Source of the DNA: Gracilinanus agilis
Taxonomy: Eukaryota
Reading direction: 5' to 3'
DNA: 64,000 nucleotides
NCBI RefSeq assembly: GCF_016433145.1
Contig: NC_058131.1
Span: 159,879,514 to 159,943,513 of the forward strand
Made by a program: the position numbers and the translations under genes. Of the stretch, positions 1,654 to 62,104 are shown piece after piece. Positions within the stretch are counted from its first letter, which is position 1, and every line of letters begins with the position of its first letter. The notes under the pieces were generated by a model that saw nothing but the letters and a program-made list of their open reading frames with translations, did no database searches and had not been told where the DNA came from.

Positions 1654-3131
1654 TTCTAGGCCAACAAGTACACAAGGGGAACTCTACACAGCCACACTTC
1701 ATCCTCCCTCATCCCTAATGACCACCGAGTCACAGAATGATAGAATTGGGGAGCTGGAAGAAAGCCCCGAGGTCGTCTAGGAGAACCCCCACGCTTCAAG
1801 CGGTCATCTCAGCATTGACCGAAAACAACGTCCAGCGACCGGGAAACCATTCCTTCCTAAGGCAGCACATTCCACTCCCGCTTGGAGAGCTTTTACTTGT
1901 TAGGAAGTTAACGCAAGCCTCGATCTGCCTCTCCCAATCCTCCCCCCACGGCTTCTCACTCTGTCCTCTGGGGCCAGGCAAGAACAAGTCTAATCCCTCT
2001 TCTGCATTACATCCCTTTCTCTGTCATGTCCATCCTTGACCCAGCCTGGGCCCCAGTGACCGGGTGGAGCTGGGCCTCTGGCTCCATGTCAGCCCTCCCA
2101 AGAGCAGCATTCCTTCCGGAGCCCACCCACCCACCATCTTCTCTCAATCCATCCCCTGTGAGGCGGAAGGCCAACTTACCTTCCTGCCCACGCCGGCCTC
2201 CTCTAGCCTCTCCTGTGCCACTCCTCTGTTGGGTTCTCTCTTTTGGTCCTTTCTTGCCCGGCTCTTCCCCTGGGATTTTCTCCTCCTCTGCCTCTCCATC
2301 TCCGGCGGGCTTCCTGGGCCAGCCTTTCTCCTCCATTTCAGACCGTGCTTCCCTCTCTCCTAAGTCTCAGTTTCCCTCCTCCCCGCTCCCCCCACCCACC
2401 CCGTCTCTGTCCTCCATGTGCACAGCACACACATGGCCCTGTTGCTGTATTTTTAGATGCCAGTTTCAGCAACGTAATTAGCCTCTTGTTTCAACACAGT
2501 CTTGGCCCTGGCCAGGGCCAGGTTGTCCTGGCTGGCACTGCCCCACCCTGGGTGGTGAGGGGGGAGAGCAAAGGGGAGGAGAGGAGAATTCGGTCCCATC
2601 CCCCTCCCCTAGCCCTGGGGTCAGAGCTTCCAGCAGCTGACCACAAATGACAGGGCCCCAGAGACCGGCCACCGAGATGCCCACGGCTCGGGGTGTGGTT
2701 GGGGGGGAGCCCCGGCAGGAGGCACGGGGAGGGTGGCTGGTCAGTACGAGGCGAAGCAGCTCGGAATGGAGGGCATCCTCGAGGCAGCTCCCTCTCCCTC
2801 CATTCAACAAACATTTATTAAACGTTTTCCTCCTCTCGGGAGGTTGGGGTGTCTGTTTAGGTGGGGAGAGGGTCATGCTTGGGAAAAGGAAGCAGAATCC
2901 CGCTGGGGAAGTGGAGAGTTTTGTGTCTACCACAGAGCCTTTCTTCAGCATTAAACTCCCTCCTTCCTGACCCATTTCTTCTCCCCCCTCCCCACCTCGG
3001 TCCTGGGGGCTCCCCGGGTAGCCCCCGAGACTCCCCAGCACAGGGGAGGCAGCCAGCCTCAGCTCTCTGTGGGATGGAGGGCTTGGGGAGGCAGGGCTAG
3101 GTGCCCAGACAGCCGCATGTGTAGGAGGGGA

Positions 3132-3147
3132 TGTCCTCGGATGCCCT
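3132..3147 (-). promoter_or_regulatory. DR4 thyroid hormone response element upstream of HR
   Basis: Minus strand reads ggtgg-AGGGCA tccg AGGACA. This matches the recalled eutherian Hr TRE (AGGGCA-n4-AGGACA), about 2.3 kb upstream of exon 1. Confidence 0.7.
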
Positions 3148-3149
3148 CC

Positions 3150-3287
3150 ACCCGGCAGTCCCAGCTCTGACGTGGGTGCCCCCCCTTCCCTGCCCGGATT
3201 AGTGGCAGCTTGGCCTGGCTGTCCGGGGCTGCCCTCCCCCGGGCCAGGGGCTGCTCCAGCTGAGGGAGGCCCGGCTGGCCTGCCCAG
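3150..3287 (+). other. HR: Candidate alternative non-coding first exon of HR (5' boundary uncertain)
   Basis: CpG/GC-rich, ATG-free stretch ending in a perfect donor CAG|GTAAGT at 3287/3288. Confidence 0.45.
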
Positions 3288-4906
3288 GTAAGTGGCTCTG
3301 AGGAAAGGGGTGAAGGTGGGTGGAGCTCCCAAAGGCCCGTATGTTTGTGGCAGTTTCTGTGTTTGTGTTTGTGCTTGTCTGTGTGGGGGTTGGTTCGGGT
3401 CTGTGTCTGGGCACGCCTCTGTTTTGGGTATTGGTCGGCTTGCCTTTGTATGTGTGTCCATTTGTGTATCACTTTTTCCTGCGTGTATCCGTGTCCTTTC
3501 TGTGGGTTCCCACAGTGCTGCTCCACTCTGGGGCCAAGAGCCGATGACCCAACGGCCTTGGGCTGTGGGCTTGGCCCAGGAGGGCCCAACTGGAGCCAGA
3601 ATCAGGGTGGGGTGGGGCTGGGAAGGGGACTCTCGCGGTACCCCATCTCCCCTCCTTCCCAGGTTCTCTAAGAGCCTGCACTGGGAACAGGGGCCCGGAG
3701 CAGCTGGGGTGAAGAGGAGTCACACACCCTGAGGAGAAATGCCTGGCCTGTCAGCCAGGAGTGACCACATCCAGAGATGTGGGAGAAGTGGGGCTCCAGC
3801 CTTCCCAAGAGCCCTCAGTGTCCCAAGGCCCAAACCAAATGCTTCTCCCACTGGTGCCGACTAGCTTGTTGGCTGCTGGTTGGGAGACACCAACAGAAGA
3901 TGTGCAAATCCTGCCAGGACCACTGACCTGTCAGTGCCACCCTCTTACACTCCCTGAAGCTAGTCTCAGGACACTGACCGGGGAAAGCGGTAGAGTGGGC
4001 TCAGGAACAGAGATTCCCAGCTCTCCGTTCTCCCAGTCAGGACAGGTCTATCACAGTCTGGAAGGAGAGGCTATACTACTGGATGGGAATCTGTGTTCAC
4101 ATAGCACAAGCTCTAAAGGGCCCAGCTCCCTCTGGACCAGCCCTCTCCCCAAGCCCCACTCGGGATCCTTTCCTCCTCCAGCTTCTGTCCTCTTCAGCTT
4201 CTCACATTCCTTATTAGGCTGTCTTCTTCCTGGCTCAGAGCTCCACTGATGCTAGCCTGTCTCCAGGGTCCAGAGAAGGAAGCCTGCCCTCTTTCCTTCC
4301 CCTTCCCTCCCACCTGAATTCTCCACTTTGGGGAGAGTAGTTTGCTTTTGTGGGTGGGAGAGGTCCTCACACTCTCTTGGTCCCAGACTAGATAGAGGGC
4401 TGCCCTCTCCAGATCCAGACTCCCTTAAGGGAGTTAAGGGATGGGCAATGGGCGTCCAGGTGAAAGGAAACACCTGTTGAGTTGGTGTATGTGTGTGAAT
4501 CTGTCTGGCTGTCTGTGAACCTGGTTGTGCTTCTTGAACCACCCCCACAGAGGAACCTTGATGCTTCCTTGGGTGGAAGGGTACCTCACTTTCCCATTTC
4601 CTCTCCCATTCTGGGTCCCTCCCTCTGAGCCACTCCCATCAACTGCTCTCCTATGCAGGGCATAGAAGCCCTGGGAACACTGGGGAGAACAGACCCATAG
4701 GATGCACAGCTGGAAGGGACCTTAGAGATCATCCTCTAGTCCAATCCCATCATTTACAAATAAGAAACCAAGAAACCTCAGGGACAGGTCCTGGGGGTAG
4801 ATAATCGAAGGGTCTGGCTAAAGGAGAGAATGTTAGGGGGAAAAGGGGAGGGGGCTGGTTAAGACAGAAAGGTGTCCTTGGGCACAAAAGGAAAAAGGGT
4901 ACAAAA

Positions 4907-4907
<1 letters not shown>

Positions 4908-4986
<79 letters not shown>
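4908..4986. repeat. Compound (TG)n(AG)n microsatellite
   Basis: TG run 4908-4945 directly followed by AG run 4946-4986. Confidence 0.95.
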
Positions 4987-4989
<3 letters not shown>

Positions 4990-5444
4990 TCTCATGACAT
5001 AGGACAGATGTTTCCCATCCTTGACCCCATGAGAACCTGACTGACACTGCCAGCAATGACACTGCCCCTTCCTATCCTGCCCTACCCTGGAGGGGGGGCG
5101 CCCCACCCCATGAATCCTGCCCAGCCCCTCCCGCCCTTTGCTCCAGTTCCCCAGCTTGGCACCTACTAGCGGGGTGCTGCCCGCCTGCCAGGCTCCGGGC
5201 CGGCCCACGGGAGGGTGGGGCCGCTGGGAAGCTGGCACGTTGCCCTGGGGGAGCCTCTCTCAGCAGGCGCCCGGGTGCCGCTGATGGGGGGGGGAGGGGG
5301 GAAACAAAGGACTCATTCTCTGGGTGCGCAGCCGGTGGCATCGCAGGGGCGTTGGCGGAAGCCCCCGGGGGCCAGGAGGGGGCAGGCCTGGGCGGGGCTG
5401 CAGAATCACGGGCTCCTGTTCCCCGCAGGGTGCAGGAGGAGTAA

Positions 5445-5984
<540 letters not shown>

Positions 5985-6047
5985 AGCGCCCCCGACTCCC
6001 GGGGGAGAGAGGGGGTGAGAGGAGCCCGCAGGTCCCAGAAGTGGCTC

Positions 6048-38290: not shown

Positions 38291-39919
38291 ATTTTTTTAA
38301 ATGGTTGGTGGAGGCAGCTGGGTGGCTTAGGGATTGAGAGTCAGGCATAGAGATGAGAGGTTCAAATCTGACCTCAGATACTTCCTACCTATATGATCCT
38401 GGGTAAGCCATTTAACTCCCATTGCCTAGCACTTACTGCTCTTCTGCCTTGGAACTGATACACAGTTTGGATTCTAAGGAGAACTCTAAGACATAAGGGT
38501 TCTAAAAAAAGATTGTTTAATTTTTTTTACATGTAAGTGGGAAATATCTCATGAGATAAATTTTAAAATTATTTTTTTAAAGTACCTTAGCAAAACCAAA
38601 ACATCATAACAACAGTATCTGACAACACGGGCACAATATACGCATAGTTTTCCACCTCTGCAAATAAAGCAGGGAGTCACATTTCTCTCAGCTCTTTCCT
38701 GGGGCCAATTTTGGTCATCATAATTACACAATGCTCAGTTTGGTGTGTTTTTTTAATCTTTCCATTTACACTGTTCTAGTCAATAGACATTGTTTTCTTG
38801 TTTTCTCTACTTACTTCACTCTGCAACAATTAATATACCTGGGACTAGAGAAAATGGCAGCCTATTTCTGGAATAATATGAACAGTGAACAGAATGCAGC
38901 TGCAACCCCCCCCCCCAAAAAAGATGTAATTTGCTATGACTGTAGACTAAGTAGGGACATAACTTGCTGGGTGCCCCCAAGAAAGGAATTCAGAGCTGGT
39001 TCGCCAGAGCCTGAAATTCAGCAGATAACCCACAGAAATAACCTTGTTCTATTCTGTCACTTCCAACATAACTGGTGGCACCTCAAACCTCAGAAACAAG
39101 GAAAATTAAAAATCCAGAATGTTCTGCAGTGCTGGACAGTGGAACGCAAGTAACAACTATATTCTACTCATTTTATGATCAACAGCATCAGTCTCTAGAG
39201 CCTATGCAGGAGCCTTTGTTTTTAATATTTTATTTTTTTCCCAATCACATGTAAAAACAATTTTAACATGTTTTTATAAATATTGAATTCCAAATTCTCT
39301 TCCTCCTTCCTTCTTTCCCCTCCTCACTTTCTGAGATGGCAAGCAATTTGATATAGGTCATAAATGTACAATCATGCAAAATATATTTTCATATTAATTA
39401 TGTTGTGAAAGAAAACACAGATCAAAAGAACACAGACACACATACACACACACAAGTTAAAAATAGTATATTTTCTTCTACATTTGGATTCCAGTTCTTT
39501 CTCTAGAAATGGATGGCACTTTTCATCATGAGTCCTTCAGAACTGTCTTAGATTATTATAATTCTGAGAATGGCCAAATTGCTGCTTCTGTGTACTCCTG
39601 GTTCTGCTCACTTCACTTTGCATCTGTGGATGTAAGTCTTTCTAGGTTTTTCTGAAAGCATCCTGCTTATCATTTCTTTTAGGTGCTTAATTTTGGGTGA
39701 TAGGTGAGAGTATAGTCTCATGTGGTAGATGGTGAGATTGACAGATATCTGGGCCAAGAGCCACTGCGCTGAAGACCCAGGTTCAAATTCCACCTCAGAC
39801 ACTATCTAGTTGTAAGACCGTGGTCTGCAGTTGGGGTGGGGTCAGGAAAAATTTTGTGCAAGCGTCAACACTTGAGGAGAACTTTAAAGAAAAGATGTTA
39901 GAGAGGATGGTGCAATTAT

Positions 39920-42900
39920 GCAGTTAAATTACTTAATTTTTATCTCAAAGTTAAAAAAACTAGAAAAAGAACAAATTAAAAATCTCCAATTAAATGCCAA
40001 ATTGAAAATCCTAAAAATTAAAGGTGAGATGAACAAAATTGAATGTAAGAATACTACTGAATTAATAAATAAAACTAAAAGTTGGTTTTATGAAAAAAAA
40101 ACAACAAAATAGATAAACCATTAGTTACTATGATTTTTTTTAAAAAGAGCCGAAAACCAAATCACTAGCATCAAAAATGAAAAGATTATATTTAGCCACT
40201 AATGGAGATGAAATAAAAGCAATGATTAGGAGTTATTTTGTCTAATTGTGTGACAACAAATTTAACAATTCAAGTGAAATGAAAGAATACTTACAAAAAT
40301 ATAAACTGCCTAGACTAACAGAAGAGAAAATAGAATATCTGAATAAACTTATTTTAGAAAAAGAAATTAAACAGGCCACAAATGAACTTACTAAGAAAAA
40401 AGCATTAGGACCAGATGGATTTACAAGTAAATCCTAACAAACATTTAAAGACCATCTAATTCCAATATTAATTATTTAGAACAATTGATAAAAGATTCCT
40501 GCCAAATTCCTTTTATGAAACAAATATAGCACCAACAACTAATCCAAGAAAAGCAAAAATAGAGAAAGAAAATTATAGGCCAATTAAATTAATGAATATA
40601 GATGGAAAAATCCTAAGTAAAATATTAGCCAGGGGACTACAGCAATATTTCACATAGATTATAAACACTATGACCAAAAAGGACTTATATCAGGTCTGCA
40701 AGGATAATACAAGGAAAACTATTAACATAAGATCACATCAATGACAAAAGTAACAAATCATATAATTACATATATTTTCAGGAAAAGCTTTTGAAAAAAT
40801 ATAACCCTCATTCCTATTAACACTTGAAAGTATAGGTATAAGTGGATTTTTCCTTGAAATGATAAGGATAAGTCTAAAGGCACCAGTAAACCTTATCCGT
40901 AACAGGGATGGAAGCCTTTCCCATAAGATCAAGAGTAAAACAAAGATGCCCATTGTCACCTATATTATTTAATATTGTATTAGAAATGCTAAAAATAGGA
41001 GACAGCTGGGTGGCTCAGTGGATTGAGAGCCAGACCTAGAGATGGGAGATCCTGGGTTTGAATATGACCTTGGACATTTCCTAGCTGTGTGACCCTGGGC
41101 ACATCACTTAACCCTCATTGCCTAGCTCTTACTACTCTTCTGCCTTACCTCTTCTGCACTATTGATTCTAAGAGAGAAGGTAAACGTTTTAAAGGGGAAA
41201 AAAATAAATGCTAGCAATAGCAATAAGAGTAGAAAAAGAAATCAAAATAATCAGAATAGGCAAAGAGATAATAAAATATCTCTTTTCACAGATGAAATGA
41301 TATTATATATGGAAAATCCCAAAGAATCAGGTAAAAAACTTAGTAGAAACTATCAATAATTTTAGCAAAGTAGCAGGCTGTAAAATAAACCCACATGAAT
41401 CATCAGCATTTTTATAATTCACCGATAATCCTGCAAGAAGAGATAGTTAAAAATAACCCATTTAAAATATCCATAGATAGGGGAAGCTAGGTGACTCAGT
41501 GGATAGAGAGCCAATCCTGGAGATGAGAGGTCCTGGGTTTAAATCTGGCCTCAGACCCTTCTTATCTGTGTGACCCTGGACAAGTCACTTAACCCTCCAT
41601 TGCCTAGTCCTTATCTTTCTTCTGCTTTAGAACAAAAACATAAAATTGATTCTAAGACAGAAGGTAAGGGTTTTAAAAAAAACCAAACCACAGTTAGAAT
41701 AAAATGCCTAGGAATATGCCTGCCAAAACAGACCCAAGAACCACTTGAACATAATTATAAAACAATTTTATGCAAAAAGAGTTAGATTTAAGTAATTGGA
41801 AGAATATTAATTGTTCATGGGTGGAAAGAGCCAATATGATTAAAATGACAATCCCATCTACACTAATCTATTAATTCAATGCCATCTCAATTAAGTTACT
41901 GAAAAAAATCATTTTATTGAGCTAGAAGAAATAATTACAATATTATTCATCTGGAAGGAAAAAAAGGTCAAGAATATCAAAGGAATTAATGAAAAAAATG
42001 TAAAGGAAGGAGGTCCTGCAGTACCAGTTTAAGAACTATATTATAAAGCAGCAATTATCAGAATTACCTGGTACTGGCTAAGTAATAGAAAAGCTGATTG
42101 GTGGAAGAGAACAGACATTCAACAAAAAGTAGAAAAAGATTATAGTAACCTTGTGTTTGACAAAAATGAAAATCAAAGCTTTGGGGATAAGAATTCACTT
42201 TTTGGTAAAAATTATTGGGAAAACTGGAAAATGGTCTGGCAAAAACAAGATATAGACCAATATCTTACACCATTTACTAAGATAAGAGCAAAATGTATAT
42301 ATGACCTAAGTGTAAAAAGAAATATCATAAGCAAATGAGAAGAATGAGGCACATGTTACCTATGAGATTTATGTATAGGAGAAGAATTTATGAATAAACA
42401 AAAGATAGAAAGCATTGTGAGTCATAAAATGGATAATTCTGAATATATTAAATGTTTTAAAAATTGTACAAATAAAACTAATGTAGCCAAAGAGGAAGGA
42501 CTGCAGGAGAGGAAACATATAAGAAAAACAACTGCTTGAACGCATGGGTCGGGGTGGACATGATTGAGGGTGTGGACTCGAAACTACCACACCAATGCAA
42601 CTACCAACAATTTGGAAATTGGTCTTGATCAAGGACACATGACAAAACTAGTGGAAATGCGCATCGGCCATGGGTGGGGGGAGTGCGGGNNNNNNNNNNN
42701 NNNNNNNNNNNNNNNNNNNNNNNNNNNNNNNNNNNNNNNNNNNNNNNNNNNNNNNNNNNNNNNNNNNNNNNNNNNNNNNNNNNNNNNNGGGGGGGGGGGG
42801 TTTGAAGGGGAAAGGAGGAGCATGAATCATGTAACCATGTTAAAAATGAATATTAATAAATGTTAAAAAAAAACTAATGTAGCCAAGATTAGAAGGAAAA

Positions 42901-43990
42901 CAGAAAATTGAGAAATCATTTTTATAGGCAGTTTCTTGGATAGAGATCTCCTATCTAAAATTTATAGAGAATCTCATCAGATTTATAAGACTATGAGCCA
43001 TTCCCCATTTGATAAATGGGCAAACATATAAAGAGACAGTTTTTGGATGAAGAAATCAAAGCTATGTATAGCTATACAAAAAATGCTCTAAATCAATATT
43101 GATTAGAAATATGCAAATTAAAACAATTCTGAGATATCATCCTCACACCTATTAGACTGGCTAAAATGACAAAAGGGCAAAATGACAAATGTTGGAAAGG
43201 ATGTGGAAAAATGGGGATATTAATATACTGTTGGTGGAACTGCGAACTGATATACTATTTTAGAGAGTAATCTGGAATTATGCTTAAAGAGTTATAAATC
43301 TATGTATATGTTTTGATCCAGCAACACCACTATTAGGTTTATTTCCTAAAGTGATCAAGGAAAATGGAAAAGAATTTATATGTTCTAAAATATTTACAGC
43401 AACTCTCTTTGTGGGGACAATGAACTGGAAATTAGGGGGCTGCCCATCAGTTGAGAAATGGCTAAACAAGTTGTGGCTTATGGTTGTGATGGAATACTAT
43501 TTGCACCATAAAAATTGAGGAGCAGGTTAGTTTTTTTAAAAGCCTTAATTTCTGTCTTAAAATCAATACTGTGTATTAATTCCAAGACAGAGGAATGGTA
43601 AGGGTTAGGCAATGGGGATTTAAGTAACTTGCCCAGGGTTACACAGCTAGAAAGTGTCTGAGGTTGGATTCAAACCCAGGACCTCTGGTCTCTAAGCTTG
43701 GCTCTCAAGCCACTGAATCACCTAGTTGCACCTAAGCAGGTTATTTTTTTTTAAATGGAAAGACCTACATGAAATTATGAAGAGTGAAATGAGCAGAACC
43801 AAGAGAACATTATATACAGCAATAAAAATATTATTTGAAAAATAAATTGTATATATACACCTCCAGAGGAAATACTGATAAACAGAAATAAATAAGTCAT
43901 AGCTTTATATATGCATATATTATGTATCTTTTTGTTAAATGATGCCTTCTTTAATAGGGAGAGAGAAGAGAAGGCTGGAGCTACCTGGAG
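39920..43990 (+). mobile_element. L1 ORF2, decayed, nested in the Gypsy relic; contains SINEs (about 40997, 41480, 43540) and a younger L1 end
   Basis: [11 protein letters not shown]; SLFTDEMILYMENPKES near 41280; L1 3' motifs. Confidence 0.9.
42491..42869 (+). mobile_element. Young 5'-truncated L1 3' end with a perfect 17-bp TSD
   Basis: TSD aaaactaatgtagccaa at 42474-42490 and 42870-42886; CpGs retained; aataaa plus A tail. Confidence 0.85.
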
Positions 43991-44534
43991 ATTTTAATGT
44001 TTACAAACAAACAAATACACACAAAAAAAAGATATGGAGGGGGAGTGCCTTACAGTTCTCATGGGGTGAGGGGTGTCTTTGAAGAAGGAGGTCATTTGGA
44101 TTTATTATAGCATAAAATAAAAGATATGGGAGTACATGAGACAAGGCAGAAACTTAGGGGAAAGCTAGAAGGACATTAGCTAGTTATCATAGTGGATAGA
44201 GTACTAGGCTTGGAATCAAGAAGACCCAAATTGAAATCCTATCTTGGACAATTACTAGCTAAGGGAAGGGAATAAGCACATGCAGCCAGGCACTATGAGA
44301 AGTGCTTTACAAATATTACCTAATTTGATTCTCACAACCCTGGAAGGTAAGTACTATTACTATCCTCATTTTACAATTGAGAAAACTGAGTCAGGCAAAA
44401 GTTAATTGACTAGCCCAGGTTAAGGTCTAGGGTTGGATTTGAATACAGATATTCCTGACTCCAGGTCTAGGTGCCACCTAGCTGCCTCTAGGTATAACTC
44501 TGGGCAGTCACACACCTTAAAATACCGTAATAAT

Positions 44535-45480
44535 TAATGTCAGTTATTTGAAACAAATGTCACCAAGATTAGAAAGAAAGCAGAAAATTTGGGAAAATTT
44601 TTCATAGATATAGTTTCTTGGAAAGAAGTCTCATATCTAAATTATATCAAGAACGTTGTCAAATTTATAAGAACAAGAACCATCTCCCAACTGATAAGTG
44701 GGCAAAAGATATGAACTGACAGTTTTTGGATAAAGATATCAAAGCCATGTGTAGGTATATTAAAATGCTCTAAATCGCTACTGAGAAAAGAAATGCAAAC
44801 CAAATAATTCTGAGGTATAATCTCACACCCATCAGATGGGGTAAAATAACAAAAGGGAAAAATGACAAATGTTGAAGGGGATGTGGAAAAATGGGGACAC
44901 TAATACATCATTGGTGGAACTGTGAACTAATCCAACCATTTTGGAGAGCAATTTGGAATTATGCCCAGAAAGTTATAAAACTGTGTATACCCTTAGAAAC
45001 TCAGCAATCTTGTATTGCTGAGTCTTTTTCCCAAGGAGACCAAGGAAAAAGGGCAGGAACTTATATGTTCTAAAATATTTATAGCCATTCTTTTTGTGGT
45101 GGCAAAGAATCAAGGGGATGCCAGTCAAATGGAGAATAGCTATACAAATTGTGGTATAGGATTGTGATAGAATATTACTGTGCTGTAAGAAATGATAAGC
45201 AAACTAACCTTGGAAAAAGTTGGAAAGAACTAAGTGAAGTAATGAAAAGTGAAACAAGTAGAACCAAGAGGACATTATATACAGCTACAGAATCAATATT
45301 TGAAGAATAACTTGTAAATGTTTACCTCCAGAGAATGAACTGAAAAATGAAAACAAGAAAAACATAATCTATGTAGACGTAGCTGTTTGCCAGATGATGC
45401 CTTGGATGTGTGGGAAGGGGAAGAAGGGTCTGAAATACCTGGTAATAAATTCTATTAATAAAAAATTTTAAAGCATCAAA
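44535..45480 (+). mobile_element. L1 3' ORF2/3'UTR fragment
   Basis: Paralogous to 42880-43990 (MGTLIHHWWNCELIQPFWRAIWNY). Confidence 0.85.
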
Positions 45481-48400
45481 AAAAGCTAGCTCTTTGCAGA
45501 CCTTAAAATGCTATATAAATTTTAGCTTTTACTATTTTAAAGGTTTACTTCACCTGGAATTTAGTCCTTCTAGGAACTTAGTAGGCGTGAAAGTAAATAA
45601 TGTTTTGAGCGAACCAAAAACTGAATCGATGGGCTATTTAGGCCTCATGATAGTCATACAGTTCCCCAATAGTTTGTAGATTAAGTGCAGATCATGGAAT
45701 ACAACTGCAGACCCTGCCCTTCCAGATCTCAATCTGTCAGTCAGGAGTCTGCTGGAACCCCTAGGAGGAGGAAACAGAATTCAGACGAATAAACAAGCCT
45801 TCCTTGTTTTCTAGCTCCCATCCTTATGTTCCAGAGGTGACATCGGAAACCTAAATAAGGGTTAATAGGCCAGAACAGTGTGTCCTCAGAGGAGGTGGAC
45901 ACCATGGTCCTGGTAGGTCCAGAGAAGGCAAACAAACATCTCTGGGTTTTTAGCTGATTGGGACCAACTCCAGCCTCTTTAAAGTACTGGCAGAGTCTGC
46001 TGTAAAGGGTTAGCTCTGTCCCAAAACACCCTGACAATTTATGTCTCCTGTGCAGAAGCTCACAGAGAGCTAGATGATAGGGTTGGCAGAGAGCCTCCAG
46101 GAACCTCCAACTCAAGGGTGGATTTGGATACTCTCCAGAGCCTGAGGAAGGGAAGGATTATCTAAGGAAGAAGCTCAGTATAAGAACTGATAAGCTCTCA
46201 TTGCATGAATAAGGTGAGGAGCATGCCCAGGGAAAAATACACATCATCTAACTCAGGAACTTCCAAACTTTCTGGGAGTTGTTAGCCAATAGGAACATGA
46301 CACTGACTGTGCTGTAGTCTGCATTTCTTATTCTCAGTTGTGGGACAGAATAAGCCTGGGAAAATCAGGATATGAATGGACCATCACTCTTTGAATCAGA
46401 AGCAGAACACTATGTCAAGAATTCAAGATGCCTTGGACTGTCTCCTAGGCAACTGGTGGTTTTCAGTTTGGGGCCTGCACAGAAGGTACCATCAGAATTC
46501 TATGGCAGCAGGGGCAGCTGGGTGGCACAGTAGGTAAAGTGCCAGGCCTGGAGTTGGAAGGACCTGAGTTTAAATCTGGCCTCAGACACTTCCTAGCAGA
46601 GCGACCCCATTTACCTAACCCTTGCTCTCTTAGCATTGAATTGTTCCTGGGGCAGAAAATAAGGGTTAAAAAAAAAGAATTCTGTAACAGAGGAAGATAA
46701 GGAAAGATGGTTTTCATCTGTGCAGTTCTACTAATCTGAATGTATGCCCCTAAGAGATTTCTGGAACTTCTGCCGCTTTTCAGTGATATATGGAAAAAGT
46801 CATTGGTGACATGAATTACTTCTTAGAGGTCCTACTGTGCCTGGATAAACTCATCCACCAAATTTGGAAAGATATTGGAAGAGTATAGGAAAAGATTGCC
46901 AATGCTATTCCATGAAGCTGCGTTTGAATCTGCCATTCAAAAAGAATAAGTTCTATGGTGTGTGGGGTCCAATATGAAGTAATGACCCTGAGAAGGTATA
47001 AAGTATTTAAATGATTGTGTTTAACTGATGGCTACCATTGGAAATATATCAGGAACTCTGTATGCCATTATCTCCAAGCCTTTTAATGAGCTCAAGTTTG
47101 GCTGAACAGAAAGGCAAGATAGTGCCCTAAGCACTCTGGGACTGGTTCAAGATTGTTGGGGTAAGAAATATGAGCAGACCTTTAAGGACTTGGTCAACTT
47201 GTATTGGAGCTGCCTTGTGCAGACTTAGCCAAGCCCCTGTGGGACTTGGAAACATTTTTTTTCTATCAAGAAAGCTATGGTCACTACCAGTAGAGGACTC
47301 CCTGGTGTTGACAGTTATTATTCTACCCACAAATTGACATCTGTGGCACCAAGGTAGTCTGTCACTGACAAATTCCAAGAATATGTTTCTCAGTTCTAAG
47401 TATTGTACAATAATCTGCTGGATGATATTTTGACAAGTGCTAAATTGGATGCCACCTGCCTGAGATAGTAGATACAGCCCCTGGCCATTTATCAATTCAA
47501 CATTCATTATCAGTCAGGGAAGACTAACATGGTGTTCTGTCCTGGAATACTACCCATCAGAAACATTGGTGAAGCCTTGGGAGGCTGCAAAGGTAGTCTA
47601 TTATCTGAAGGGAGGAAGGTTGTTAAGACAAGGGGATACAACAGAGCCTGGGACAGCATCCATAGAGCACAGCCAAGCAGTAAGATGCACCAAGCCAGTC
47701 CTCCCTGTGCTGAATATCTTTGGATGATGGGTAGTGAATGTAGATGTAGGATGAACGTCTCCACAAAATGATCTGGACCAAGAAAAAGGAATATGACCCT
47801 TGGAGACTCACACTTAACTCCCCAGAAACCACTTATCTATTGGAGGAATGCAAAAAATAAATCTGAGTGAGGGGCAGCCAGGGAGCTCAGTGGGTGGAGA
47901 ACCAGGCCTGAAGACAAGAGGTCCTAGATGTCCCTTCTGCCACAGAATTCTGATAGTACCTTCTGCGCAGGCCCCAGACTGAAAACCTCTGGTTGCCTAG
48001 GAGACAGCCCAAGGCATCTTGAATTCTTGACATAGTGCTCTGCTTCTGATTCAGAGAGTGATGGTCCATTCATATCCTGATTTTCCCCAGGTTTATTCTG
48101 TCCCACAATAGAGAGTGAGGGATACAGAATAGAGAACAGTCAATAAGTCATATGTTACTGCTGACTAACAGCTCTCAAAAAGTTCAGAAGTTCCTGAGTT
48201 AGATGATGTGTATTTTTCCTTGGGCATGTTCCTCATCTTATTCATGCAGTGAGAGCTTGTTAATTCTTGTACTGGGCTTCTTCCTCGCCACTTCCTAGCT
48301 GTGTGACCCTGGGCGAGTCACTTAACTCCCACTGCCTATCCCTTACCACTCTTCTGCCTTGAAATCAGTACTTAGTATTGACTCTAAGATGGAAGGTAAG

Positions 48401-49654
48401 GGTTCTTAAAAAACACAACAACTCATGTGATGGAGTGTTGAACTGAACTATGACCCATTCTTCATGGAATACAAGAAGACTATAAGATTAAAAATTAATA
48501 TTCAAATACTCCAAGCATATTTTATAAAATGTATTAATAATAACTTGAAGTAAAAAGAAAATAAATAACAAAAGTAAGAGCCTGAGTCAAGCCAACTTTC
48601 CCAGTCATTCATACAGGGGGAAAAAAGAGAGCCAGGGCAGGGTTACACACAACTATATAGAAATAACATAAGCAGGCAACTCGGGAACAAAAGAGGAAAG
48701 GGATGCTGGGAGATATAGTTCAAAGGCACAAAATTTCTATTTATACAAGATGATTGGTACTACCAAAGCATGCCACAATGATGAACTCTTGGGCCTAAGC
48801 AAAATTCTGGAGGTAGGCTTTTACTGGCTAGGTTCTACCAACCCAGGGGATTTCCAGAAGTATGGGCCCTGCATTCAACGTGTTCCCAGAAAGGTGATAA
48901 ACTGACTTAACTGCTTGCCAGAAGGGCATGTGCAGAAGCAGCAAGGCTTTGAAGCTGGTGTTCACAGACTTCTTGCCTCTAGAAAGGGACAGGAAGAACA
49001 TAACCCACATCTTGCTCAAATTGGTGCTAGCCTTGGCATGTTTCAAGAAGGCTAAAACCACATCCTCAAGGAGACCCACAGCCAGATTGTTTTAATTACA
49101 CCCTGATAAACAGGCCAGGGCTCAGAGGCCTAAGCAGAAAGTTCAATGGAGTCAATACACTCAGTGCAGGCACGCCATGCTACCAAGGACATACCATAAG
49201 CTTCGTTCTTCTTTATGTCGAAGCAAGAGCCTCACAGGCCTATCATCCATCTGTCAGTCAGTCAAAAAACTTTCATTAAAGACTTACTATGTGCTAGGCG
49301 TTAAGCTAAGCAGGAGAACATGATTATAGGCAGAAACAAAGATGGTGCCTGCCCTCAAGGAGCTTATACTCTTAATGGGAGAGGACAACAGATACGAGCT
49401 GAAAGGAGAGAGGGAAAGGCACTCAGGCTGGGAGCCCAAAATAGGAAATGTAGAAAGGCACAAGCAGAGATCGGTGTCTGGAAGCCTTAGATATGAACAC
49501 GTGGAACTCCCAACTAGTCCTTCACTCACATAAGAGATTATTTGAAGGGGGCCTCAGCTCAGAAAAGCTTAGTAGAGGACACATGATGCTCTAATGGTCC
49601 ATGGTCAGGTATTCCAGTCATAGAGCAGAGTTCTATTAAGAAGTCTTGATTGGG

Positions 49655-49858
49655 GGGGCAACTGGGTGGCTCAGTGGATTGAGAGTCTGGCCTAGAGACA
49701 GGAGGTCCTGGGTTCAAACCTGGCCTCAGCCACTTCCCAGCTGTGTGACCCTGGGCAAGTCACTTGACCCCCATTGCCCACCCTTACCACTCTTCTGCCT
49801 TGGAGCCAATACATAGTATTGATTCAAAGGCAGCAGCTAAGGGTTAAAAAAAAAAAAA
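49655..49858 (+). mobile_element. Full-length SINE1_Mdo-like SINE with TSD
   Basis: Consensus-like body, poly(A), flanks aagaagtcttgat / aagaagccttgat; similar copies at about 50771(+), 51836(-), 57199(-), 58256(+) and 61703(+). Confidence 0.9.
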
Positions 49859-52714
49859 GAAGCCTTGATCTCCAGGGAGAAGACACAATCATGGATGGTC
49901 ACCCCATACCAGGTAATTAATGACAATAATAATAGCTATATATTTCATAATATTTGTATTTGATATTCTTACATTTTAATTATGTATCTTGTTTATATAG
50001 CACTTTAACATGAACAAAGCACTTAACCTAGTATCTCAACAACCCAATGAGTTGGGTACTAGTTCTATGCCCCTTTTACAGATGAGGAAACATGAGGCAG
50101 AGAGAGATTAAATGACCTGTCTAGGGTCGAAGAGCTAGAGTCTGCTGCAAGAATTTGAATTTGAGTTTTCCTGATTCCAAGTCCAGCTCTCTCTACTCTA
50201 TTCTAGCACCTAGCTGCCCCGTGTAGTTAGAGTAGATAATTTGCCAGTTTATTAAGTCACTCCAGAGAGTAACTGGGGCCCTTTAAGGGCAATCCCCATT
50301 CTTGCTAGAGAATTTAGGAAGATTCCTTGTAATATGGAACCAAATGATATTGGGAAGATTACAGATCAAGCTATGGATGAAAACAACAACAACAATTCTA
50401 TATTGGTATGGCCTGAGGAATCCTGCCGAGGCTGTCCTGGCTAAAGAGGATGGCTGAATCCAGAAGCTGTCTCCCTTCTTGGCTCCCATACCTTCCTCCC
50501 CCACAGAGCCTGATTCATGAGGTGGAAACAGTGGTTTTCAACTTAGATCATTTATTAGGCCCACAATGAGGAATTCAGGCCAATAAGCCTGAGGATATTG
50601 ACTCACCCCACAGGGCAATGAGAGAGGAGGGTTCAGGTGTGACATGTTAGTGTTGAAGTACAGGGGCTATCAAGCCTGGGACCAGGCTGGCATATGATGG
50701 TCCTGTGGTCATCAAGGAAAGTTCAATACTCGTCTTGTTAGAAGATGCCCATTAACAGTGGGTATATATAGGGGGCAGCTGGGTAGCTCACTGGATTGAG
50801 AGCCAGACCTAGAGATGGGAGGTCCTAGGTTCAAATTTGACCTCAGACACGTCCCAGCTGTGTGACCCTGGGCAAGTCACTTGACCCCCATTGCCTACCC
50901 TTACCACTCCTCTGCCTTGGAGCCAATACACAGTATTGATTCCAATACAGAAGGTAAGGGTTTAAAAATAAATAAAAGTGTGTGCATGATATGCATTTTT
51001 TATGAAAAATCAACATCTGATACAATACCGTGTGCTCGTCAAGGCAATAATTATTTATTAAATAACAATTCTATGCCAGGTGCTGTGCTAAGTGATGGGG
51101 ATATAAAAGGCAAAGATAGTCTCTGCTCCCAAGATACTTCTAATCTAACAGTGGAGACACATCCAAATAACTATGTATAAAGCTTTTTATAGGATAAATT
51201 GGGGGAAAAAAAGTTCAGAGAGAAGGAACTGAACACTGAGGAGACTGGGAAAGTTTATTGCAGACGGTGGAATTTTGACAGAGTCTTGAAAGGTGCCAAA
51301 GCAGTCAGGAGGTGGAGGCAAGAAAGGAGAGCATTCCGGGGGAAAGGGACAGACAGTAAAAATACTGAGTAGAGAGATGGCGTGTCTTGTGCAAGGAACA
51401 GAAAGGGGGCCAATGTAACTGGATCACAGAGTACATGGAGTACATGGAAAAGAAGGAGTAAGAGGACTGGAAATATAGAGAGATCAGGACATGAAGGGCT
51501 TTAAAAGCCAAACAGAGATCCCAAAGGTAATAGGAAGCCACTGAAGTTCATTCAATTGAGGACAATCGCTGACAGCTGAGTGGAAGAAGCATTCGACTGG
51601 GGCAAGACTCAGGCAGGAAGACCCACTGATGGGCTCTTACAATAGTCCAGACTGCACCAAGGTGGTGGCAGTGTCAGAGGAGAGAAGGGGCATGTAAGGA
51701 GAGATGCTATAAAGAGAGAAAGGACAGGACTTGGCAACTAAATGGATAGGGGAAGCAAGAGCAAGTTCAGGATGACATCTAGGTGGGGAGCCTGGCCTCC
51801 TGGAGGGATAATGGTAATCTTTTTTTTTTTTTTAAACCCTTGTACTTCTGTGTATTGTCTCATAGATGGAAGATTGGTAAGAGTGGGCAATGGGGGTCAA
51901 GTGACTTGCCCAGGGTCACACAGCTGGGAAGTGGCTGAGGCCGGGTTTGAACCTAGGACCTCCCGTCTCTAGGCCTGACTCTCAATTCTCTGAGCTACCC
52001 AGCTGCCCAATAATGGTAATCTTAACAGTAATTGGTAAGTTAGGAAGAGGAGAGTGTCTGAGAAGAAGATGAGATGAGATGTCCATTAGACAACTGGCTC
52101 AAGAAACCTAATAAGCATTTACATGCGACATATATTCCATCTACTATATGCAACTCAGCCATAAATTGCTTCTGTATGCTTGAAACTTATGTGAATGGTC
52201 TACTATATAAGATAACAATTGAATATTATATACTACATACCTTTTGATGATCTATATTTCAGGGATAATTAGTATGATTGTATATGTTCACCAAATATGA
52301 TTTGCAGGGAATGAAACCACTTTTACTGTGGGTAGGAAATAATAGGAACGCATGTGATTAAAAAAAACTCCATTTTTGGTAAGACTCTCAAACTCAACAT
52401 GAGGCCTGATTGATGTTCTTAGGACTTCATTTCCCAGGTAAAGCTATGAAACTATGCCTTTGCTGTAGTTGTGAGTGGAGTGGGGTTGGGGGGAGACCTA
52501 CTTCAGGAGGGTGATAGAGACCTCTGGGCAGAAGGAAAAAGTGAACCCACAAAGGGACTGCAGTGATGCTATCCAGGAGATCAGGAGTCTTGACACGTTC
52601 CTGAGACCCCACAGTGCAAGACAAGCAGACATCTGGACTGGAGAAAGTGCTGAGATTGCCTTGGGGTGAAAAATTAAAGCCATAGAAGTTGATGAGATCA
52701 TCAAGGGAAAATTT

Positions 52715-59993: not shown

Positions 59994-60339
59994 GGATTTG
60001 AATAGTAATAAAAATAATAGCACCTTAAAATCTGCAAAGTACTTTACAAATATCTCATTTGATCCTTACAACAACCCTGGGAGGTAGGTGTAATTATTAT
60101 TATTCCCATATTATGGATGACATAGAAGTTAAGTGACTTGGACAAGGTCACGCAGAAGGAATTGAGGATGTTTAGCCAGGAGTCGGAAGTGGTTTGGGGG
60201 TGGAGGGGGGGTGACGTGGGTTGCGTTCCAGCATCTGAAGGGCTAAGTCATAGAAGAGGGGCTGACTCTGCTCTGCTTGGCTCCAAGGAGGCCAAGAAGG
60301 ATGGATAAGACACGCCACTGGGTAGTACTAGTAGGGGTC

Positions 60340-61150
60340 CCCAAGAAGGGAATGCGTGCGTGGCAGCGTCGGACAGTAATGTGAGGGGGAGGGGCGGAGG
60401 CAAGAGACGGGAGAGAAAAGGCACCGCTTTTTTTGTGACGTCACCTCGGTGCCGCCCCACACCTCACTCCTCCTTCCCCGTGGCTATGTGACCTCACTGA
60501 CCATATCTAGGGGGCGGTTACATCAGCACGCAGCCGCCGAAGGGAGAAGCGAAGGGGCAGCACGAGCCGGACGGAAGTCTGAACGGTCACTGCACGGTCT
60601 CGGCTCCTTTAAGAGCAGACTCCACCTCCTTGTTCCTGCAGGCCAACGGTGGGGCCTGAACGGAGTGACGTCATAATAGCGAGGGCGGGGGGAGGAGGAG
60701 ACACTCCTGGGGTTCCAGAGAGAGGCGGGGCCGGAGGCGGCAACCTGACCAGGCCAGGCCAGGATCTATCCTCCTCCTCCTATTCCCCTCTCACCCAGCC
60801 CAGCCTCGGCCTTTCGGGGCGCTGACTCTAACCTTAACCCTGACCTTGACCTTGGCCTCCTTGATTCCTTGGTCCCCGGCTCCAGTCTGTCCTGTGTGTT
60901 CCGCCGGGGCGGTTTACTTCTAACCCGATTTTTCCACTTCTCTTCCTACGGATCCACCTGTCCCTCTGGTCCGGAGTCCCTGCCCCACCCCAACCACTCC
61001 CCTCACGTGACCCAGTCTGGTCCCCACCCTCTGGGTCCCCGCCTGTCCCACCTCTCTCCATCCCTGTATCCTTCCCTCCCCCGCTCTTCACTCGCAGTCC
61101 TTGCCAATGGCATCCTCAGGCCTGGCAGGGGATCTGAAGGCCGTGCTGGG
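60340..61150. promoter_or_regulatory. NUDT18: NUDT18 CpG-island promoter
   Basis: CpG-rich; TGACGTCA at 60436-60443 and 60666-60673; GC boxes near 60683 and 60724; CGGAAGT ETS-like site near 60572; TCACGTGA 61003-61010. Confidence 0.8.
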
Positions 61151-61268
61151 GGGCCAGGGGCTGCCGGTGCTGGACTATGACTCTGTGCCCTCAAAGGGCC
61201 CACCTGTGCCTGCACAGCTCAGGAAGAATGTCTCCTATATCGTGCTGGCTGTCTTCTTCAACAACCAG
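61107..61268 (+). CDS. NUDT18: Nudix hydrolase 18 (8-oxo-dGDP phosphatase, MTH3), first coding exon; remainder not found in the window
   Basis: MASSGLAGDLKAVLGGQG...PVPAQLRKNVSYIVLAVFFNNQ matches recalled human MASEGLAGALASVLAGQG...RLRKNVCYVVLAVFLSEQ; donor CAG|GTGAGA; HR-NUDT18 synteny. Confidence 0.9.
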
Positions 61269-62104
61269 GTGAGAGGCAGCCAGGACCCTGACTCTAAAGG
61301 CCTTTGGGACCCAGACACAAAAAGATCCTAGAGCCCGGACCTTTCTTAATTTATGGGCTTGGGAAAGAAAGATCACCCTTTATTGGCAGGGTGGTGACTG
61401 GACAATCAGGCACCGTTTTCATTTCAACAAAACAACATTTTATTAAAGTTTGACAGCAAAGAGATCTAATACTCACCCCAAACATTTGTTGAATGTTTTC
61501 TAAGTCCTAGGCACTGTGCTAACTGCCACAGGGGATGGAGAATTCAATTCAACGTTTATTTATTAAACACTGACTGTGTTGTGTGCTAAGGAGGCAGATG
61601 AGAAAAAAGGCACAATCCCTAACCACAAGGAACTCACAAGCCAGCACATGCAAGTTAGAATATAATAAATGTATAGGAAAGATCCAGATAAAATGCAAAG
61701 AGTGGGGCAGCTGGGTAGCTCAGTGGAGTGAGAGTCAGGCCTAGAGACAGGAGGTCCTAGGTTCAAACCCAGCCTCAGCCACTTCCCAGCAGTGTGACCC
61801 TGGGCAAGTCACTTGACCCCCATTGCCCACCCTTACCAATCTTCCACCTATGAGACAATACACCGAAGTACAAGGGTTTATTAAAAAAAAAAAATGCAAA
61901 GAGAAAGCCTCCCGACTGGCTTCTGAGCTGGGTCTTGAATAAAGGGAGAAGCCTTAGCAATTGTCCTGCTGTTCAGTAAGGATTTATTACAGAGACAAAA
62001 AGACAAAACAGTCCCTGCCTTCAAAGGGTTTATTTTCTATTGGGGAAATAAATGCTTATTGAACTGATATGGGGGGTGGGGTGGAATAGGCCTTTTTATC
62101 CCCC

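What the first reader, a model, noticed from the sequence alone, without database searches (positions are those of the whole stretch)
38830..50500. Collinear fossil Ty3/Gypsy retrotransposon hidden under L1 and SINE insertions
Seen on the + strand in order: decayed zinc knuckle (38932), protease LDSGTQVT with an intact Asp codon (39135), protease C-terminal part (SSHPY..EEVDTMVLV..LIGTNSSLF, about 45810-45990), RT (46421-46850, YLDD decayed to CLDK), RNase H (47319-47530), integrase HHCC region (CHND..GFYW..CIQR, about 48770-48880), core (LVFTDFLPLE; HPQGDPQP) and a probable C-terminal LARNLG..EP near 50310. Known: PR-RT-RH-IN order and these motifs typify vertebrate Gypsy elements, which are extinct in mammals but gave rise to PNMA, RTL/SIRH and related genes. 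Inference: an unusually complete pol relic that the ORF track misses, useful for reconstructing a donor lineage.
Basis: partly seen in the sequence, partly recalled or inferred. Interest (0 to 1): 0.7.

Follow-up and report, generated by a model that had tools for sequence, protein, structure and literature searches.

The report
Dead PNMA-lineage Gypsy retrotransposon fossil
This is a broken, likely functionless jumping-gene copy in an opossum genome, one of dozens there, and its closest intact relative found is a sea-turtle element of the lineage that likely gave mammals their PNMA capsid genes: real and datable, but mostly an ordinary fossil.

Summary
The fossil is real. Pfam misses it frame by frame, but its RT piece hits Gypsy polyproteins at E=2.5e-12. 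A sea-turtle Gag-Pol (P0051, Barthez clade, PNMA-type capsid) aligns collinearly from zinc knuckle to integrase C-terminus over 38902-50336 (score 547, controls 49-64). The copy is dead: about 20 stops and 28 frameshifts, most catalytic aspartates lost, no capsid, no LTR found, and no purifying selection against its ortholog in a second species (5 of 35 changes synonymous, 28% expected). It is not unique. The genome holds 29 better-scoring RT relics and at least 60 capsid matches. Among 38 copies this one ties first for domain count but ranks 21st by score. New details: an inverted 363-nt duplicate of the RT start; loss of the dUTPase-like segment shared with another copy; two capsid families genome-wide, one containing PNMA-MS1. 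Membership in Dfam MamGyp-int could not be tested.

The parts
38902..39022 (+). Gag tail with decayed CCHC zinc knuckle (P0051 287-330)
   Evidence: score 46, 0 of 100 shuffles; weak
39060..39206 (+). Protease N-terminal half, catalytic Asp codon at 39135
   Evidence: tblastn E 1.9e-7; profile 29 bits; 0 of 100
39215..45520 (.). Block of nested repeats splitting the protease: common repeat 39215-39694, L1 ORF2 piece about 39880-44034 with SINEs inside, second L1 3' piece 44517-45488
   Evidence: weak RVT_1 at about 40565-40819; L1 pieces 67-74% alike; repeat counts; subfamily names recalled
45810..46075 (+). Protease C-terminal half
   Evidence: block 45889-46075 is 57% identical; 0 of 100; start at 45810 read by eye
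46076..46122 (+). Short junction where the turtle element has a dUTPase-like segment: about 50 nt instead of about 380
   Evidence: same shortening in copy L034
46114..46507 (+). Pre-RT linker and RT N-terminal part; first RT catalytic Asp lost
   Evidence: E 1.8e-10; 0 of 100
46510..46680 (+). SINE inside RT with a decayed target-site duplication of about 15 nt
46690..47102 (+). RT C-terminal part and thumb; YLDD box decayed (CLDK at 46838)
   Evidence: score 124, 0 of 100
47150..47531 (+). RNase H (strongest 47271-47531); catalytic acids lost
   Evidence: E 3.2e-12; profile 38 bits
47870..48410 (+). SINE interrupted by the inverted duplicate
47923..48285 (-). Inverted 363-nt duplicate of 46165-46522 (linker, RT start and first 12 nt of the upstream SINE), 87% identical; replaces about 17 nt of its host SINE with 3-5 nt microhomologies
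48765..48889 (+). Integrase HHCC region, decayed
   Evidence: score 50, 0 of 100
48937..49244 (+). Integrase core with an internal deletion of about 53 codons that removes the second catalytic Asp
   Evidence: none of 12 other copies tested lacks the whole segment, one lacks about half
49253..50215 (.). Repeats inside the integrase: L2-like piece from 49253, SINE 49654-49860, MIR-like piece 49938-50215
   Evidence: 5, 159 and 50 hits in unrelated loci, both strands; the names L2 and MIR are recalled, not tested
50229..50336 (+). Integrase C-terminal part (P0051 1586-1625)
   Evidence: score 45, 0 of 100; profile 2.8 bits vs control -6
50669..50728 (+). Probable end of the pol frame (P0051 1787-1806)
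   Evidence: 10 of 20 identical, 1 of 100 shuffles; tentative

Best explanation
This is one decayed, likely functionless insertion of a Ty3/Gypsy retrotransposon of the PNMA-capsid (Barthez) lineage, likely inserted in the Mesozoic and since cut up by later repeats. Shown: collinear zinc knuckle, protease, RT, RNase H and integrase; closest intact relative found is a turtle element; dozens of sister relics; presence in two other species; neutral change. Inferred from the family: an active master made one Gag-Pol polyprotein (the turtle proxy is a single 1827-aa frame), copied its RNA with RT/RNase H and pasted this copy with its integrase. The copy then likely lost capsid and LTRs and took L2/MIR-like, L1 and SINE insertions. 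Later a template switch likely copied 363 nt of the RT start, inverted, into a SINE 1.4 kb downstream. It would make no protein today.
For: phmmer on 1.84e9 proteins: 26 hits at E<=1e-3, best 2.5e-12, a 24-member sea-turtle cluster. Relatives carry PNMA, RVT_1, RT_RNaseH, Integrase_H2C2 and rve. Whole alignment 547 vs 49-64 for 6 controls; ten pieces each beat 100 of 100 shuffles. P0051's start reads nearly the same as the 'Chrysemys Barthez gag/pol' in the PMC3670739 supplement (by eye). Turtle is the best of six references for 24 of 24 relics under turtle, fish and frog guides. Sister copies link the PNMA capsid to the same protease or RT (L080, L096, L108, L155). Ortholog in organism B is 91-94% identical with frame-breaking indels, and one collinear contig exists in organism C. 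5 of 35 scored changes are synonymous vs 28% expected under neutrality.
Against: No Gypsy Pfam hit in single frames and no useful PDB hit for the RT piece. Zinc knuckle, HHCC and both C-terminal pieces are weak. RT-tree support is poor (relic clade 0.80; stem with turtle and alligator 0.16), and rows were projected on the turtle guide. With the alligator guide turtle wins 18.5 of 24. The neutrality count uses 35 of 82 listed differences, one species pair, RT region only. No LTR, primer site or target-site duplication was found, so insertion by retrotransposition is inferred from the family.
Confidence: 0.9

Rival explanations
1. A decayed endogenous retrovirus pol, which has the same domain order.
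For: The genome has many ERV pol copies; order PR-RT-RH-IN is shared.
Against: The long relatives scanned are Gypsy polyproteins, three with a PNMA capsid. Window RT is 47% identical to turtle Gypsy; the ERV-like row L132 is 31% and at most 26% to any relic.
Confidence: 0.02
2. Two or more independent Gypsy fragments lying side by side (for example the zinc knuckle and protease start are a separate insertion 6.6 kb upstream).
For: 6.6 kb of other repeats separate the protease halves; about 10-30 residues at the join are not securely aligned.
Against: Same strand, strict order, no overlap in protein coordinates (413 then 434-447) across all pieces; such relics are rare genome-wide (tens to perhaps hundreds in 3.7 Gb).
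Confidence: 0.04
3. An exapted sequence: a domesticated protease or RT exon, or a regulatory or hairpin RNA element formed by the inverted pair.
For: Retained in three species; the inverted pair could base-pair if both arms are transcribed (not tested).
Against: Stops and frameshifts throughout, catalytic residues lost; indels and no synonymous excess against organism B; arms have drifted to 87%.
Confidence: 0.04

Closest known systems
Barthez-clade Metaviridae of turtles (P0051, Caretta caretta Gag-Pol, 417-member cluster; 'Chrysemys Barthez gag/pol' of PMC3670739)
   Same: Domain order and sequence: 40-47% identity over 750-1030 aligned residues; best summed score of 105 long homologs
   Different: Turtle frame is intact and multicopy; this copy is dead and lacks capsid, LTRs, the dUTPase-like segment and part of the integrase core
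MamGyp-int / MamGypLTR (Repbase human Gypsy family; source of the PNMA2 gag per bioRxiv 2023.02.09.527862)
   Same: Same lineage. By eye the MamGyp-int capsid start is 37 of 52 identical to P0051 and 27 of 59 to PNMA-MS1, so it sits nearer the turtle-like family B
   Different: No pol or LTR consensus was available to compare; the window has no capsid; membership untested
Gypsy12_DR-related gag remnants and PNMA-MS1 of marsupials (PMC3789554)
   Same: 12 opossum and 19 tammar gag pseudogenes reported; here 60 capsid matches and one intact 458-aa PNMA-MS1 frame
   Different: That study searched with Gag only; this finding is the pol side
Gypsy-30_AMi (alligator; closest Repbase proxy for the PNMA ancestor in PMC11011659)
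   Same: PNMA-capsid lineage; alligator RT fragments group with turtle and relics
   Different: Proxy has a dUTPase; none of 10 relics tested shows one, and two lack the space for it

Membership tests
Ty3/Gypsy (Metaviridae) | pol order protease-RT-RNase H-integrase | tested here: met
Ty3/Gypsy (Metaviridae) | RT closer to Gypsy than to retroviruses | tested here: met
   P0051's best PDB match is Ty3 Gag-Pol
Ty3/Gypsy (Metaviridae) | Flanking LTRs, primer site, polypurine tract, target-site duplication | tested here: inconclusive
   No non-SINE direct repeat among the 20 largest of 55 families shown; no shared flank with other copies; decay or deletion cannot be told from absence without an LTR library
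Barthez clade (defined on RT/RNase H trees in PMC3670739) | RT groups with turtle/crocodilian Barthez elements | tested here: met
   24 of 24 relics closest to turtle under three guides; tree agrees with weak support; clade label from a by-eye match to the paper's supplement
Barthez clade (defined on RT/RNase H trees in PMC3670739) | PNMA-type capsid gag upstream of pol | tested here: inconclusive
   Not in this copy (scores 39-52 vs shuffles 50-55; profile negative); present and collinear in sister copies
Gypsy-30_AMi-type PNMA ancestor proxy | dUTPase between protease and RT | tested here: not met
   About 50 nt where the turtle element has about 380; not filed under this family
MamGyp-int / MamGypsy2-I (Repbase, Dfam) | Nucleotide match to the family consensus across pol | not testable with these tools
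   No Dfam or Repbase library on hand; the name MamGypsy2-I is recalled
MamGyp-int / MamGypsy2-I (Repbase, Dfam) | MamGypLTR flanks | not testable with these tools
   No LTR library; no LTR found de novo
sushi/chromovirus (donor of PEG10, RTL/SIRH) | Best relatives with sushi-type capsid or chromodomain | tested here: not met
   The capsid families found in scanned relatives are PNMA and PNMA_N, with only weak Retrotrans_gag hits and no chromodomain

The most novel reading that the evidence does not exclude
Opossum genomes keep an undescribed, multi-subfamily pol record of two PNMA-capsid retrotransposon families: family A, the donor of marsupial PNMA-MS1, and family B, sister to the living turtle element and like MamGyp-int. 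This copy belongs to a dUTPase-less sublineage missing from repeat libraries. That would date Barthez activity in marsupials, overturn the published 'absent in Theria' entry, and make single versus independent origin of marsupial and placental PNMA genes testable from the donors. The short distance to the turtle element might even reflect turtle-mammal transfer.
Probability: 0.3. Interest if true: 0.6.

Novelty: new member of a known kind. Interest (0 to 1): 0.35.

Why it matters
The single copy matters little: it is dead and more decayed than the median of the 38 compared. The collection it led to matters more. PMC3670739 Table S2 marks Barthez elements as absent in Theria, not even as remains, although its main text allows rare fragmented fossils. 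PMC3789554 catalogued only gag remnants. Here one genome yields at least 29 further RT relics and two capsid families, one containing PNMA-MS1. The two papers disagree on whether marsupial and placental PNMA genes share one domestication; donor-family trees could test that. Three searches aimed at marsupial Gypsy pol or MamGyp relics found no such description, but repeat libraries may already annotate these loci.

Tried and rejected
Single-frame Pfam on 27 translations: only weak L1 RVT_1 and two chance hits. PDB search with the RT piece: nothing under E 0.7. Capsid upstream in the window: none. LTR search by direct repeats and shared flanks: none; the 50200-50765 stretch finds only itself in the genome. 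Tether between RNase H and integrase, dUTPase-like segment and integrase residues 1496-1580: not above shuffles. Small blocks under score 45 (for example 44269-44325, 49597-49659) were treated as filler. Assigning the window to capsid family A or B by third-position identity or shared residues: no clear signal. PF17917 census: swamped by ERVs. IQ-TREE timed out, FastTree used instead. Host gene: no convincing family in 100 ORFs scanned with Pfam, a weak Neuralized hit was not supported, and the Atlas gave no usable hit for two long ORFs. Sequencing runs: no RNA holder listed. The SINE and duplication junctions were not dated in other species (one search gave no data). Gentles 2007 (PMC1899126) is not held, nothing seen. 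No placental PNMA sequence came back, so the capsid tree lacks them. Earlier findings: nothing returned.

Full report
Observation. The motifs are at the stated places. A direct search reverses this. The RT piece 46331-46900 hits 26 of 1.84 billion proteins at E<=1e-3, best 2.5e-12. The best hit is a multicopy sea-turtle protein. Of nine hits scanned, all have RVT_1, three have a PNMA capsid and three have integrase domains. A full-length relative, P0051 (Caretta caretta, 1827 aa, 417 members), has the highest summed score of 105 long homologs. Frameshift-aware alignment gives 547 against 49-64 for four shuffled proteins, reversed DNA and another window region. Ten pieces from zinc knuckle to integrase C-terminus each beat 100 of 100 shuffles, a tail piece at 50669-50728 beats 99, and the tether, dUTPase-like and integrase-gap segments do not stand out. 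'LARNLG' at 50310 is out of order against the family and is rejected as a motif, though the region is integrase C-terminus.

Anatomy and damage. The relic covers P0051 residues 287-1625 over 38902-50336, perhaps to 50728. The alignment counts 21 stops and 28 frameshifts, some of them in filler blocks. The protease Asp and the first integrase Asp are kept. The first and third RT aspartates and the RNase H acids are lost, and a deletion removes the second integrase Asp; none of 12 other copies tested lacks that whole segment. No capsid lies upstream in the window and no LTR was found. About 6.3 kb of L1 and other repeats split the protease, a SINE with a target-site duplication splits RT, and common repeats that I recall as L2 and MIR sit inside the integrase. 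Between protease and RT about 50 nt stand where the turtle element has about 380 nt with a weak dUTPase match. Copy L034 has the same shortening, and the DNA aligns across it (63% over 299 nt, score 117 against a null maximum of 50), so the loss was likely inherited from a master element.

Family in the genome. The host is a didelphid opossum, inferred from an intact PNMA-MS1 frame 94% identical to that of Monodelphis. The turtle RT finds 29 Gypsy-like relics in the top 30 rows, each with stops; the window's RT is not among the 150 rows scored, the rest being ERV-like. PF14893 finds 60 capsid matches, a lower bound. Over 20 kb around each of 37 other copies (less on three short contigs), the window ties first for domains at least half covered (6 of 8). 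It ranks 5th by aligned residues, 21st by score and 24th by identity. Those comparators were picked for strong hits, so they lean toward better preservation. Local DNA identity to other copies is 59-74%.

Placement. An RT tree of 67 rows (6 of 30 RT loci and one plant protein dropped for short coverage) puts 27 relics, the window included, in one star-like clade (0.80) with the turtle and alligator sequences; the deeper support is poor. Because rows were guided by the turtle protein, I repeated the alignment with other guides. Turtle remained the closest of six references for 24 of 24 relics with fish and frog guides, and 18.5 of 24 with the alligator guide. The start of P0051 reads almost the same as the 'Chrysemys Barthez gag/pol' in the PMC3670739 supplement (by eye). 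A capsid tree splits 26 relics into family A (10, with PNMA-MS1, support 1.0) and family B (16, support 0.95, sister to turtle at 0.90); each relic was aligned to its best guide, which can sharpen such a split. The window cannot be assigned to either.

Age and function. Organism B holds the RT-RNase H stretch at 91-94% identity with frame-breaking indels, and one contig of organism C runs collinearly with pieces 82-100% alike. That is far above paralog identity, so these are likely orthologs. Run X1 may be this DNA's source and is not counted. Of 35 scored differences (from 40 of 82 shown), 5 are synonymous against 28% expected without selection. Window-to-relic distances are 0.71, 0.55 and 1.09 at codon positions 1-3. 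The third-position excess suggests masters diverging under selection before each copy died; this was not calibrated. About 0.3 substitutions per site per copy, at a recalled rate of 2-2.5e-9 per year, gives roughly 120-150 million years. The inverted duplicate would be about 30 million years old on the same rough clock.

Mechanism. The best reading is a dead insertion with no present function (0.9). The life cycle is taken from established Ty3/Gypsy biology; the order of nested insertions is read from nesting; the template switch is inferred from the junctions. Rivals are an ERV (0.02), adjacent independent fragments (0.04) and exaptation (0.04).

What is known. PMC3789554 (parts 2 and 4 of 5 and passages; supplement not read) lists gag remnants in opossum and tammar and argues for insertion after the marsupial-placental split. 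PMC3670739 (passages, section 13, supplement passages and one table part; one supplement file not searchable) argues for one therian exaptation and marks Barthez as absent in Theria. PMC11011659 (passages and supplement passages, file cut when stored) names Gypsy-30_AMi as proxy, with a dUTPase. bioRxiv 2023.02.09.527862 (passages) derives PNMA2 from MamGyp-int. PMC5753468 (passages) lists MamGyp-int. PMC9004415, PMC4408412 and PMC4350176 (passages) add that Gypsy protein fossils occur in mammals. Searches showed no paper on marsupial pol relics of this lineage; subscription papers and repeat libraries were out of reach.

Verdict. A real fossil and a new member of a known kind, interest 0.35. 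The locus is wide but heavily decayed and not unique. The family-level picture is the more useful lead, with a 0.3 chance of being undescribed.

Noticed in passing
window 46165-46522 (+) and 47923-48285 (-): 363-nt inverted duplicate, 87% identical, sitting inside a SINE with short microhomologies at both joins; looks like a templated insertion by template switching, younger than both SINEs.
   Followed up: partly
L062:1048-2424 (G000:C1 near 540.606 Mb): Intact 458-aa PNMA-MS1 frame, 94% identical to the Monodelphis domestica protein and 73-76% to six Australian marsupials.
   Followed up: yes
L064 (G000:C2:327414020-327414340): 127-aa open capsid frame that groups with PNMA-MS1 on a short branch (0.12); likely a recent duplicate, perhaps like the reported PNMA-MS2.
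   Followed up: partly
L063-L091: Capsid relics split into two families: 10 with PNMA-MS1 (support 1.0) and 16 sister to the turtle element (0.95); 26 of 29 relics used, 30 of 60 matches fetched; DNA similarity clusters agree.
   Followed up: partly
L034, L044, L048, L124, L127, L133, L140, L141: A tighter, probably younger RT subfamily with third-position identity 54-78%, against about 35-50% between groups.
   Followed up: partly
L155 (G000:C2 near 380.85 Mb): Another wide relic, capsid to integrase C-terminus, lacking RNase H; capsid scores nearer turtle (97) than PNMA-MS1 (56).
   Followed up: partly
L016-L033 and many rows: Many endogenous-retrovirus-like pol frames of about 1195 aa without stops, so a young ERV family is abundant in this genome.
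   Followed up: no
window about 42495-42880: A short G-rich piece resembling an L1 3' end (recalled) nested in the older L1, flanked by a direct repeat of about 17 nt read by eye.
   Followed up: no
window 2001-6000 and 60001-62000: GC- and CpG-richer stretches (CpG o/e 0.28-0.41); no host gene was identified.
   Followed up: partly
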